DNA of 64,000 bases from a virus (IMGVR_UViG_3300024346_006511:1-64000), one strand, 5' to 3'; positions 53,408-54,357 are shown, counted from the first letter of the stretch. Notes: generated from the sequence alone by a model not told the origin. A program made the numbers and translations.

Positions 53408-53703
53408 AATTCACATTCAGGCATAAACCACCATATTACCAATATCACTATTACAGCAACTACTGTCACTATGAGTTGAATTGGTTTATTTTGTTTTTCT
53501 TTCCAAGCTTTGAGTTTTAATCCCCATCTATATCCAATTCCTGCAGACCAGTCCATTGCTCTACCTATCCAATCAAATGGCGGCACCTTTAACAACGTTA
53601 CTAATCCTATAAGAAATCCTGTAAAGTATTCTCCTCCAAGCATAAGAATAATCGATGCTGCGATGAAGTAATACCCTATATACTTTTTAAGGTGTTCTCT
53701 CAT
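53401..53703 (-). CDS. Membrane protein
   Basis: Hydrophobic helices. Confidence 0.65.
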   Translation of the reverse strand: MREHLKKYIGYYFIAASIILMLGGEYFTGFLIGLVTLLKVPPFDWIGRAMDWSAGIGYRWGLKLKAWKEKQNKPIQLIVTVVAVIVILVIWWFMPECELC

Positions 53704-53864
53704 TTCTGTGTTTTGTTTTTCTGGTATATTTCTTCTTGTTCTTCACTGGCGATGGCATGCGCAGAGCATGGACCCACTCTTGGTAGGTCAACACCACTTC
53801 CTCCAACTTTACCTCTTTTTTCTCTCTTTTCGTTCCACTCATCACTAAAGTAAATAAATTCCAT
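53700..53864 (-). CDS. Hypothetical protein (start moved to MEFIYF)
   Basis: ORF-track start lies inside a terminator; TATTTAT at 53887-53893. Confidence 0.5.
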   Translation of the reverse strand: MEFIYFSDEWNEKREKRGKVGGSGVDLPRVGPCSAHAIASEEQEEIYQKNKTQK

Positions 53865-53910
53865 ACTACAATATACGATTTTTATTATAAATATCCAAAG
53901 AATAAACAAT

Positions 53911-53935
53911 AAAAAACCCGGCACGTCTGCCGGGC
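53911..53935 (-). terminator. Intrinsic terminator
   Basis: CCCGGCA-gacg-TGCCGGG-TTTTTT. Confidence 0.85.
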
Positions 53936-53942
53936 TATTGAT

Positions 53943-54050
53943 GTTAAGAAGTGTACTGCAACCGGATGCAATTAAGATTACCGGAAATTTCTTTTACGCT
54001 CACGGGGTACTTGACGCCGGACTACTCCATACCGACTTTCTTACCTTAAC
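53943..54050 (-). ncRNA. Candidate ~110-nt structured ncRNA
   Basis: Own promoter (54056-54091) and terminator; ends GTTAAG/CTTAAC pair; no sense ORF. Confidence 0.6.
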
Positions 54051-54111
54051 TAACTTACTACAATATATGAATAATAAAGTTCATATGCAACTATATCACC
54101 ATATATTTCCC

Positions 54112-54140
54112 AAAAAAAACCCCTCCGTTTCCGGAAGGGC
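54112..54140 (-). terminator. Intrinsic terminator
   Basis: CCCTTCCG-gaaa-CGGAGGGG-TTTTTTTT. Confidence 0.85.
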
Positions 54141-54151
54141 TTGTCAAATTC

Positions 54152-54187
54152 GCGCGTGGCGACTTCGTCGGAGAGAGAAACGCCCCC
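54152..54187. repeat. GC-rich hairpin repeat, copy B
   Basis: GCGCGTGG-CGAC-TTC-GTCG-GAGAGAGAAACGCCCCC. Confidence 0.8.
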
Positions 54188-54357
54188 TACCCCTTCGTTG
54201 CCTCCATATTCGCTTTCTTGTAAGGTGTAATTAATTTTTTAATCTCACCTGCTGCTTTACGAGCTCTTGCTTGTGAAGTCTTTGTACTTCCGCTATTATT
54301 TTCAGCTAGTACATTAAATTGCTCTGCAATTTGTTCGAATAATTCTTCTTTGTTCAT
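54187..54357 (-). CDS. Histone H1-like (Hc1 family) protein, 56 aa
   Basis: Not in ORF track; MNKEELFEQIAEQF...TKTSQARARKAAGEIKKLITPYKK matches the Bacteroidota Hc1 RARK pattern. Confidence 0.75.
   Translation of the reverse strand: MNKEELFEQIAEQFNVLAENNSGSTKTSQARARKAAGEIKKLITPYKKANMEATKG

What the first reader, a model, noticed from the sequence alone, without database searches (positions are those of the whole stretch)
53911..54091. Stand-alone ~110-nt structured ncRNA with its own promoter and terminator (6S-like decoy?)
Seen (minus strand): a terminator ends the upstream unit, then a class 1 promoter (GTTG-N20-TATATTG), then 108 nt starting GTTAAG and ending CTTAAC, then a strong terminator. 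The only ATG is followed by GAG TAG. By-eye folding gives a rod: AAGAAAGU/ACUUCUU, GUAU/GUAC, GUAG/UUGC, CCGG/CCGG, then an internal bubble and a weak apical stem. The downstream gene has its own TATTTAT motif, which argues against a riboswitch. Known: 6S RNAs are rods with a central bubble, and Flavobacteria have a short 6S-Flavo motif. Inference: a phage sRNA, possibly an RNA polymerase decoy or anti-defence sponge. I could not match it to a known family.
Basis: partly seen in the sequence, partly recalled or inferred. Interest (0 to 1): 0.72.

Follow-up and report, generated by a model that had tools for sequence, protein, structure and literature searches.

The report
Mobile small RNA gene of flavobacterial phages
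Between two protein genes, this marine phage carries a roughly 145-base RNA gene that codes for no protein, has its own promoter and terminator, and recurs almost letter for letter in unrelated phages of Flavobacteriaceae but in no bacterium searched, so it is probably a functional, horizontally traded phage RNA whose job is unknown.

Summary
On the minus strand an upstream terminator is followed by a TTG-N20-TATATTGT promoter, a 108-nt GUUAAG...CUUAAC core (54050-53943), and a strong terminator.

It matches no Rfam family. That includes 6S, 6S-Flavo, SRP and every riboswitch, even at E<=10.

I found 19 distinct homologues in marine viral and metagenome contigs. They lie in at least four genomic contexts, in immuto-like myoviruses and in Nonlabens-phage-like siphoviruses that share no detectable protein with this phage.
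- 77 of the 114 aligned positions (core plus 3 flanking bases on each side) are invariant, and the core is at least 86% identical in every pair.
- One hairpin (P4) changes freely in length and sequence, with compensatory base changes at its base.
- The promoters and terminators differ between lineages.
- Most close relatives lack the cassette.
- No ORF is conserved on either strand.
- The downstream genes vary, so this is not an apt riboswitch.

No homologue turned up in about 700 sampled Flavobacteriales genomes or in GenBank phages. Metatranscriptome contigs cover the neighbouring genes but not the RNA.

Verdict: a real, new, mobile phage non-coding RNA family, an "RNA moron". It most likely acts in trans on a conserved host component, but the mechanism is unproven.

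The parts
54117..54142 (-). Intrinsic terminator of the upstream 56-aa gene. It isolates the RNA unit from upstream transcription.
   Evidence: 11-bp stem plus T-run. The same terminator precedes the cassette in most immuto-like homologues.
54060..54090 (-). Promoter: -33 TTG (54090-54088), a 20-nt spacer, and a -7 box TATATTGT (54067-54060). The predicted start is near 54055.
   Evidence: Sequence. TATATTGT fits the TAnnTTGY box (motif SM5) described for Flavobacterium psychrophilum beside the sigma-A box TAnnTTTG (PMC9723704). The Nonlabens-phage-like homologues carry a perfect TTG-N20-TATATTTG instead. The start site is inferred and was not measured.
53943..54050 (-). Conserved RNA core, 108 nt from GUUAAG to CUUAAC.
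   Evidence: 19 distinct homologues; 77 of the 114 aligned positions (this core plus 3 flanking bases on each side) are invariant. At least 86.5% identity in all pairs outside the P4 apex. CM R1 scores 137 bits here.
54045..54050 (-). P1, 5' strand (GUUAAG). It pairs with 53948-53943 (CUUAAC).
   Evidence: The closing pair changes from G-C to A-U in the L130 group, where P1 extends to about 14 bp.
54016..54036 (-). P2 hairpin: GUCGG / CCGGC with the 11-nt loop UAUGGAGUAGU (UAAGGAGUAGU in the other immuto-like homologues; one A shorter, UAGGAGUAGU, in the L130 group).
   Evidence: Predicted in every fold. There is one U.G to C-G change, and the rest is invariant.
54000..54015 (-). J2/3 joining strand GUCAAGUACCCCGUGA. 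UACCCC could form a pseudoknot with the loop GGAGUA.
   Evidence: Mostly invariant; only positions 51-53 vary freely. The pseudoknot is compatible (97.9% of cells pair) but shows no compensatory change, so it is inference only.
53955..53999 (-). P3 (GCGUAA / UUGC-A-GU), an invariant 9-nt bulge AAGAAAUUU, and the P4 hairpin (CCGG 53984-53981 / CCGG 53965-53962, apex 53980-53966).
   Evidence: The P4 base pair covaries: G-C 13, A-U 4, C-G 1. The apex ranges from a 3-nt loop to an 8-bp stem with a 28-nt apex, and the added pairs continue the helix. P3 is weaker: 6 sequences carry G58U, which shifts a bulge.
53909..53936 (-). Intrinsic terminator of the RNA, with its U-tract.
   Evidence: Every homologue ends in a terminator, but with a different sequence in each lineage. 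A G-C to G-U change in L053 and the U-tract fix the transcribed strand.
53864..53875 (-). Second copy of TATATTGTAGTA: the promoter box of the downstream small ORFs, directly repeated on either side of the cassette.
   Evidence: only two exact copies in 64 kb. Relative L003 keeps this promoter and the downstream genes but lacks the cassette. L315 likewise has promoter repeats on both sides.

Best explanation
This is a self-contained gene for a small non-coding RNA of about 145 nt: promoter, 108-nt conserved core, intrinsic terminator. It behaves as an accessory, horizontally exchanged cassette, an RNA-only "moron", among phages of marine Flavobacteriaceae.

The RNA most likely folds into a closing helix P1, an invariant hairpin P2 with a GGAG-containing loop, and a P3-P4 arm whose tip is free to vary. 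These are joined by long, invariant single-stranded segments.

Nearly every core nucleotile is held constant in phages that share nothing else. The cassette has no fixed neighbour gene, and no bacterial homologue was found. From this I infer that it works in trans. Its conserved surface would bind a component common to the hosts: a host protein or RNA machine, possibly a defence component. It would do so as a decoy or modulator during infection.

Shown:
- it is non-coding;
- conservation far exceeds that of the flanks;
- there is hairpin covariation;
- promoters and terminators are lineage-specific;
- distribution is patchy.

Inferred: transcription itself, the detailed fold, action in trans, and the target.

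My confidence that it is a genuine functional RNA gene is about 0.8. My confidence in the trans-acting structured binder or decoy mechanism is about 0.45, which is the figure given.
For: - No Rfam family matches in three family members.
- There are 19 distinct homologues, and 77 of 114 aligned positions are invariant.
- Core identity is at least 86.5% in all pairs. The adjacent conserved 56-aa gene is only 71-90% identical at the DNA level.
- The P4 apex is completely replaced between copies, while its base covaries as G-C, A-U and C-G. P1 changes from G-C to A-U.
- The cassette occurs in at least four contexts:
  - after the GroEL/56-aa gene;
  - after a 275-aa lipoprotein gene;
  - after a primase and PD-(D/E)XK nuclease gene pair (L315);
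  - after terL in Nonlabens-phage-like contigs.
- The two main phage lineages share no protein by tblastx. Their nearest cultured relatives infect Flavobacterium and Nonlabens.
- Promoters and terminators differ between lineages but are always present.
- The cassette is absent from 76 other immuto-like loci and from the syntenic regions examined in cultured phages immuto (around GroEL) and P12024L (around terL); a blastn search of GenBank phages also found nothing.
- No ORF is conserved on either strand.
- No homologue was found in 151 Flavobacteriaceae or 151 Flavobacteriales genomes with the CM, or in 401 genomes by BLAST. A pattern scan of 185,579 species genomes also found none.
Against: - There is no expression evidence. 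Contigs from four marine metatranscriptome runs cover the 56-aa gene and the downstream small ORF but not the RNA. Contigs are poor at capturing small RNAs.
- The core is not thermodynamically more stable than shuffled sequence: z = -0.06, -0.24, -0.58 and +1.46. The whole unit with its terminator gives z = -1.85.
- Covariation is thin, with 3 compensatory pairs, because the sequence barely varies.
- No partner, target or ligand has been identified.
- The high identity could partly reflect recent horizontal transfer rather than selection.
Confidence: 0.45

Rival explanations
1. A base-pairing regulatory sRNA. One of the invariant single-stranded segments, such as GUAAGAAAG, AAGAAAUUU or ACACUUCUU, would be a seed that pairs with host or phage mRNAs. 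The hairpins and terminator would provide stability.
For: The layout of own promoter plus intrinsic terminator is typical of trans-encoded sRNAs. Secondary structure is weak and single strands are long and conserved. In Flavobacterium psychrophilum, 85 new independent sRNA-like transcripts of median length 176 bp were reported (PMC9723704).
Against: Conservation covers about 90 nt, not a short seed. No recurrent complementary site turned up in 401 Flavobacteriaceae genomes, though BLAST cannot see 8-12-nt seeds. Unrelated phages would have to share the same target.
Confidence: 0.2
2. A riboswitch or attenuator acting in cis. A ligand-binding aptamer would control read-through of its own terminator into whatever genes lie downstream.
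For: The order promoter, conserved junction RNA, terminator, genes resembles a transcriptional riboswitch. A variable peripheral hairpin around an invariant core is aptamer-like. In L199, L206 and L164 I saw no consensus -7 box between the terminator and the next gene, by eye.
Against: Downstream genes are unrelated across contexts: small basic ORFs/apt, a 60-aa gene, a lipoprotein, structural genes. Relatives express the same downstream genes from their own promoter without the RNA. The terminator does not overlap P1. I could find no alternative antiterminator pairing conserved across lineages whose terminators differ (inspection). No riboswitch family matches.
Confidence: 0.1
3. A 6S-like RNA polymerase decoy.
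For: It is a stand-alone, abundant-looking small RNA in a Flavobacteria-type phage. A rod pairing of the 5' and 3' halves is 93% compatible with the alignment.
Against: 6S (RF00013) and 6S-Flavo (RF01685) do not appear among the hits even at E<=10 in three family members. The rod explains only one covarying pair. It leaves unexplained the covariation between columns 74 and 120 and the helix-extending insertions of P4. No central open-promoter-like bubble is conserved.
Confidence: 0.04
4. Not a functional RNA. It could instead be a DNA-level element such as a protein-binding or recombination site, or a recently spread selfish cassette with no function of its own. A rarer alternative is a small self-cleaving ribozyme.
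For: There is no transcript evidence. Folding energy is weak. The cassette is flanked by repeated promoter sequences that could drive recombinational spread. A possibly decayed remnant lies in L003, though 30 of 1000 shuffles score as high.
Against: The P4 apex has been wholly replaced and the promoters and terminators exchanged, yet the core stays at least 86% identical. This argues for purifying selection on the core. G.U pairs and one-directional terminators point to a transcribed strand. No ribozyme family matches.
Confidence: 0.12

Closest known systems
Phage 'morons': independent promoter-gene-terminator units inserted between conserved genes, as first described for lambdoid phages HK97/HK022 (my own knowledge)
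   Same: It has its own promoter and its own intrinsic terminator. It sits between the genes of a conserved block and is present in some relatives and absent from others at the same site. It lies in a hypervariable spot where other small genes come and go.
   Different: The cargo is an RNA, not a protein gene. The same cargo is also found in unrelated phage lineages, each with its own promoter and terminator.
RNA anti-CRISPRs (Racrs): phage-encoded solitary CRISPR-repeat mimics (PMC10651486, abstract seen)
   Same: Both are small non-coding RNAs encoded in viral genomes as accessory units. Racrs are known to act as decoys for a host machine, which provides a precedent for RNA-based counter-defence.
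   Different: Racrs are defined by mimicking host CRISPR repeats. I found no repeat-like or multi-copy match to this RNA in 401 Flavobacteriaceae genomes. This RNA is also longer, with a junction-type fold.
6S RNA and 6S-Flavo (Rfam RF00013, RF01685)
   Same: A small stand-alone RNA in the Flavobacteria world. The 5' and 3' ends pair with each other.
   Different: There is no covariance-model match. Comparative data favour a three-way junction with a variable hairpin rather than a rod with a central bubble. No host counterpart was found.
Transcription-terminating riboswitches
   Same: An invariant junction core with one variable peripheral stem, followed directly by an intrinsic terminator.
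   Different: No consistent regulated gene class, no aptamer-terminator overlap or conserved antiterminator, and no Rfam riboswitch match.
phi29 packaging RNA (pRNA) (my own knowledge)
   Same: A phage RNA of about 120 nt with a three-way junction. In one lineage this RNA lies next to the terminase gene.
   Different: pRNA co-evolves with its own packaging motor. This RNA is nearly identical in phages with unrelated terminases, lies far from packaging genes in the window phage, and is missing from close relatives.

Membership tests
6S RNA / 6S-Flavo | Match to the Rfam covariance model at or above the gathering score | tested here: not met
   Neither family is listed at gathering threshold, nor at E<=10 for the window, L130 or L315 copies.
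6S RNA / 6S-Flavo | Extended rod with a conserved central bubble that mimics an open promoter | tested here: not met
   The rod model gives 93% compatible cells and 1 compensatory pair. The three-way-junction model gives 97.6% and 3 pairs, plus helix-extending insertions in P4.
6S RNA / 6S-Flavo | Binds RNA polymerase holoenzyme and templates product RNAs | not testable with these tools
   Needs pull-down or in vitro transcription.
Riboswitch (transcriptional) | Conserved aptamer upstream of a functionally coherent set of genes | tested here: not met
   Downstream genes differ in each context. Relatives keep those genes without the RNA.
Riboswitch (transcriptional) | Expression platform: the terminator competes with an alternative pairing that involves the aptamer | tested here: not met
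   The terminator starts 6-17 nt after P1. Terminator sequences differ between lineages, and by inspection no matching complementary change occurs in the core.
Riboswitch (transcriptional) | Specific ligand binding | not testable with these tools
   Needs in-line probing or ITC.
Phage moron (accessory transcription unit) | Own promoter and own terminator flanking the cargo | tested here: met
   TTG-N20-TATATTGT and a 9-bp terminator in the window. TTG-N20-TATATTTG and a different terminator in the L130 group. The promoters are consensus matches only and their activity has not been measured.
Phage moron (accessory transcription unit) | Present or absent between otherwise syntenic relatives | tested here: met
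   L003, 89% identical in the flanks, has 46 nt in place of the 199-nt cassette. 76 of the related loci lack it.
RNA anti-CRISPR (Racr) | Sequence and structure mimic a CRISPR repeat of the host | tested here: inconclusive
   No repeat-array-like match in 401 Flavobacteriaceae genomes; the best hits are single 18-25-nt matches inside coding genes. The true host is unknown, and only two candidates per genome were scored.
Protein-coding small gene | An open frame conserved among homologues | tested here: not met
   Sense frames hold 1-8 stops. The antisense frame that is open in the window has a stop in 5 homologues and is frame-shifted in 4 others.

The most novel reading that the evidence does not exclude
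A horizontally traded RNA counter-defence or take-over factor. This would be a compact, pseudoknotted phage RNA that unrelated Flavobacteriaceae phages exchange as a promoter-terminator cassette. It would neutralise or hijack a conserved host machine by direct binding. Candidate targets are an RNA-guided or RNA-sensing defence system, or the Bacteroidota ribosome, whose anti-Shine-Dalgarno tail is normally sequestered; the invariant P2 loop carries UAAGGAG. That would be a class of RNA-based anti-host weapon distinct from CRISPR-repeat mimics.
Probability: 0.2. Interest if true: 0.85.

Novelty: new variant of a known kind. Interest (0 to 1): 0.6.

Why it matters
Very few phage-encoded structured RNAs are known, and almost nothing is known about RNA biology in phages of Bacteroidota, whose hosts lack Hfq and ProQ and largely ignore Shine-Dalgarno sequences. 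This RNA has a nearly frozen core, moves between unrelated marine phages, and has no bacterial counterpart. That makes it a well-defined candidate for a new RNA-based way of manipulating the host. The family is small, clean and ready for experiment, with one variable hairpin that can take a tag. If it proves to be a decoy for a defence system or for a core machine, it would widen the short list of RNA-only phage weapons. If it proves to bind a ligand, it would be a new aptamer class.

Tried and rejected
1. Rfam at gathering score over the whole window, and at E<=10 on three family members. The only hits were sub-threshold and terminator-driven: Phe/Trp leaders and various sRNAs.

2. blastn against GenBank phages. 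The only match was a terminator look-alike in an Erwinia phage.

3. The exact 17-mer with the window-specific U found nothing. The 14-mer GGAGTAGTCCGGCG was too unspecific, returning 119 or more mostly chance loci, though it did reveal the L130 group. L203, L328-L330 and all 85 genome contigs pattern hits were chance matches.

4. CM search of Flavobacteriaceae and Flavobacteriales genomes. The one weak hit (28 bits) turned out to be an ordinary terminator hairpin.

5. BLAST against 401 Flavobacteriaceae genomes gave scattered 18-25-nt matches inside coding genes.

6. Metatranscriptome contigs from four marine runs lay on the 56-aa gene, DUF6580 and the small downstream ORF, but none lay on the RNA. 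Because these are contigs, that neither proves nor disproves expression.

7. An alternative "register B" helix (AAG[A/U]A with U[U/A]CUU). The A-U/U-A switch holds in 15 of 19 distinct sequences, but four sequences from three lineages break it. I kept it only as a possible 2-bp extension of P1.

8. tRNA association: none.

9. pRNA-like, Y-RNA-like, tracrRNA-like, K-turn, THF and yybP resemblances, considered from memory. None has tool support.

10. A remnant of the cassette in L003 is only weakly supported: 30 of 1000 shuffles score as high.

11. I suspected that the 175-aa gene after the RNA in L304 was a GIY-YIG endonuclease. Pfam did not confirm it.

Full report
**What is there**

Read on the minus strand, the 56-aa gene (54357-54187) ends in an intrinsic terminator at 54142-54117. 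Then come, in order:
- TTG at 54090-54088;
- a 20-nt spacer;
- the box TATATTGT at 54067-54060;
- a 108-nt stretch from GUUAAG (54050) to CUUAAC (53943);
- a 9-bp GC-rich terminator with a U-tract at 53936-53915.

The exact 12-mer TATATTGTAGTA occurs only twice in the 64-kb window: here and again at 53875-53864, in front of the downstream small ORFs. TATATTGT fits the TAnnTTGY box (motif SM5) that a transcriptome study of Flavobacterium psychrophilum describes beside the sigma-A box TAnnTTTG. Both occupy -12 to -5 (PMC9723704). That places the start near 54055 and gives an RNA of about 145 nt.

**It matches nothing known**

Rfam 15 at gathering score finds only a tRNA elsewhere in the window. 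Permissive scans at E<=10 were run on the window copy and on two divergent homologues. They list only sub-threshold hits driven by the terminator hairpin. No 6S, 6S-Flavo, SRP, riboswitch or ribozyme family appears.

**Genomic setting**

The record is a 156-kb IMG/VR virus. Its GroEL is 64% identical to that of Flavobacterium phage vB_FspM_immuto.

Around the RNA, the minus strand reads: GroES, GroEL, NAD synthase, DUF6580 membrane protein, the 56-aa protein, the RNA, two overlapping small ORFs, a 100-aa membrane protein, a phosphoribosyltransferase (apt-like), and a PNP/MTAN-like enzyme.

**Homologues**

Neighbouring proteins were used as anchors, followed by DNA patterns taken from the conserved blocks. 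This recovered the cassette in IMG/VR and metagenome contigs, giving 19 distinct RNA sequences. They fall into several contexts:
- (a) directly after the 56-aa gene of immuto-like phages, sometimes with a 275-aa lipoprotein gene inserted in between;
- (b) in other places of more distant relatives (L304, L307);
- (c) in L315, after a tryptophan-halogenase-like gene, a DnaG-type primase and a PD-(D/E)XK nuclease;
- (d) in a quite different, smaller phage type (L130, L164, L199, L206, L311), between the large terminase gene and structural genes.

The terminase of group (d) is 54% identical to that of Nonlabens (Persicivirga) phage P12024L. tblastx finds no protein shared between group (d) contigs and the window's genome. 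So the RNA is the only thing these two phage lineages have in common. The closest cultured relatives of both infect Flavobacteriaceae.

**Conservation pattern**

- Of the window's 114 aligned positions, 77 are invariant in all 21 sequences. None of positions 73-89, which cover the fourth pair and the apex of hairpin P4, is invariant.
- Outside that apex every pair of sequences is at least 86.5% identical. The window copy is 91-97% identical to the other immuto-like and L315 copies (92% to L315), and 86.5-87.5% identical to the L130 group.
- By contrast, the neighbouring and itself well-conserved 56-aa gene is only 71-90% identical at the DNA level to three of the same relatives.
- The P4 apex has been replaced outright. 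It ranges from a 3-nt loop (L315), through a 7-bp helix (L300), to an 8-bp helix with a 28-nt apex (group d).
- Promoters and terminators are lineage-specific. Group (d) has a perfect Bacteroidota TTG-N20-TATATTTG and an unrelated terminator. L307 and L315 have terminators of their own.
- In L164 and L311 the promoter region has been replaced by another gene. Homology starts almost exactly where the transcript is predicted to begin.

So the unconstrained parts have diverged or been swapped while the core has stood still. That is the signature of purifying selection on the RNA, not merely of recent transfer.

**It is not coding**

All three sense frames carry stops. The antisense frame that is open in the window (the mechanical 98-aa ORF) has a stop in five homologues. 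In four others it is shifted by indels of -4, -11, +11 and +3 nt.

**It is an accessory cassette**

- Relative L003 is 89% identical on both sides. It has 46 unrelated or decayed bases in place of the 199-nt cassette, and it keeps the downstream promoter and genes. The resemblance of those 46 bases to the cassette is weak, since 30 of 1000 shuffles score as high.
- A covariance model built from the family (R1) finds exactly one copy in the window's genome.
- R1 finds none in 76 other immuto-like loci, and none in the syntenic regions of phages immuto and P12024L.
- Promoter sequences are directly repeated on both sides of the cassette in the window and in L315. This suggests the unit moves by recombination between shared promoter sequences.
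- This layout is what phage biologists call a moron, here with an RNA as cargo.

**Fold**

RNAalifold and single-sequence folds agree on P1 (GUUAAG/CUUAAC), on P2 (GUCGG/CCGGC with an 11-nt loop), and on the terminator.

The variable region shows that CCG[G/A/C] and [C/U/G]CGG form the base of a hairpin, P4. That pair occurs as G-C (13), A-U (4) and C-G (1), and all insertions extend this helix. The closing pair of P1 changes from G-C to A-U in group (d), where P1 is lengthened to about 14 bp.

A third covarying pair (A-U or U-A at alignment columns 15 and 136) could extend P1 across a GUAAG bulge. Four sequences from three lineages break it.

My working model is a three-way junction made of P1, P2 and P3-P4. 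P3-P4 carries an invariant 9-nt bulge, AAGAAAUUU. A possible H-type pseudoknot would pair GGAGUA in the P2 loop with UACCCC downstream. This model gives 97.6% paired cells and three compensatory pairs.

It leaves unexplained the covariation of column 74 with column 120 and the helix-extending insertions.

Two cautions apply:
- Most columns never vary, so most pairs are untested.
- The core is not more stable than shuffled sequence: z = -0.06, -0.24, -0.58 and +1.46. With the terminator, z = -1.85 for the window and -2.45 for L130.

The RNA is therefore defined more by conserved sequence, much of it apparently single-stranded, than by strong helices.

**Is it a riboswitch for apt?**

No. In L014, L015 and L292 the next gene is a 60-aa protein and there is no apt gene. 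In L297 and L300 the next gene encodes a small lipoprotein, and in group (d) an 83-91-aa protein or a structural protein.

The terminator begins 6-17 nt after P1 and does not overlap it. I could find no antiterminator pairing that is conserved across lineages whose terminators differ (inspection).

**Is there a host counterpart?**

None was found in any of these searches:
- a pattern scan of one genome per species for 185,579 species, which gave only chance hits;
- the CM over 151 Flavobacteriaceae and 151 Flavobacteriales genomes, where the single weak hit was an ordinary terminator;
- BLAST over 401 Flavobacteriaceae genomes, which gave only scattered 18-25-nt matches inside coding genes and nothing resembling a CRISPR repeat array.

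These genomes are samples, so the correct statement is "not found in those searched".

**Expression**

The phage's DNA recurs in many marine and seawater runs dated 2016 to 2024. Assembled contigs from four metatranscriptome runs lie on the 56-aa gene, DUF6580 and the downstream small ORF, but none lies on the RNA. Contigs rarely capture a 145-nt RNA, so this is an absence of evidence, and transcription remains inferred.

**Mechanism**

Shown:
- a non-coding unit bounded by a promoter and a terminator;
- strong purifying selection on about 90 nt;
- one free hairpin;
- horizontal exchange among unrelated Flavobacteriaceae phages;
- accessory status;
- no fixed neighbour gene.

Inferred: the RNA acts in trans on something common to the hosts. 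Whole-core conservation fits a three-dimensional binding surface, for a protein or RNA machine or less likely a small molecule, better than it fits a short antisense seed. Patchy, moron-like distribution is typical of host-manipulation and counter-defence cargo.

RNA anti-CRISPRs set a precedent for RNA decoys in phages (PMC10651486), but this RNA shows no repeat mimicry.

The invariant P2 loop UAAGGAGUAGU contains an extended Shine-Dalgarno-like sequence. That is notable in hosts whose ribosomes sequester the anti-SD tail (PMC9976891, abstract). It is a lead only.

My probabilities:

| Reading | Probability |
|---|---|
| Trans-acting structured binder or decoy | about 0.45 |
| Base-pairing sRNA | 0.2 |
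| Cis riboswitch or attenuator | 0.1 |
| 6S-like RNA polymerase decoy, specifically | 0.04 |
| Non-RNA element, functionless cassette or ribozyme | about 0.12 |

Unlisted mechanisms make up the remainder.

**Novelty and verdict**

The kind of thing, a phage-encoded small RNA or moron, is known. This family has no described relative, is shared across unrelated phages, and has no host homologue in what was searched.

It is a real and well-delimited new RNA family with a clear experimental path. Its function is open. The same stretch was also flagged in an overlapping window of this scan (note e1-5787754), but nothing similar was on record from other DNA.

Noticed in passing
window 53687-53863 (minus strand); also L004, L053, L295, L296, L297, L307: Just downstream of the RNA, two overlapping small ORFs in different frames are both kept open in many relatives. 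One begins MEFIYFSDEWNEK.... The other is very basic and begins MSGTKREKK...KKKYTRKTKHKN. This may be a genuine pair of overlapping genes or a frameshift site. A metatranscriptome contig covers 53693-53832.
   Followed up: partly
window 54187-54357 (minus strand): The 56-aa lysine-rich protein after GroEL or DUF6580 has no Pfam family, yet 143 relatives were found in IMG/VR. Contigs from all four metatranscriptome runs that were laid cover it. It appears to be a highly conserved, expressed small phage protein of unknown role.
   Followed up: partly
window 53864-53875 and 54056-54067; L315 on both sides of the RNA: Near-identical promoter sequences directly flank the RNA cassette: TATATTGTAGTA in the window and TTGGCTACCACAGA..GTCGTATATT in L315. 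This suggests cassette exchange by recombination between shared phage promoters.
   Followed up: partly
L002 800-2150; L004 2746-3573: The site after the 56-aa gene's terminator is a hot spot for variable cargo in relatives. L002 carries an 80-aa and a 335-aa gene there. L004, L294 and L302 carry a 275-aa coiled-coil lipoprotein gene.
   Followed up: no
window 53745-54146: One metatranscriptome contig (run X23, 1036 nt, 88-95% alike) joins 53745 to 54146 with 12 other letters in between. It is a transcribed relative that lacks the cassette and part of the small-ORF region.
   Followed up: no
L315 8535-11330: In L315 the RNA follows a tryptophan-halogenase-like FAD enzyme, a DnaG-type primase and a PD-(D/E)XK nuclease. 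A halogenase-like gene is an unusual item in a phage replication module.
   Followed up: no
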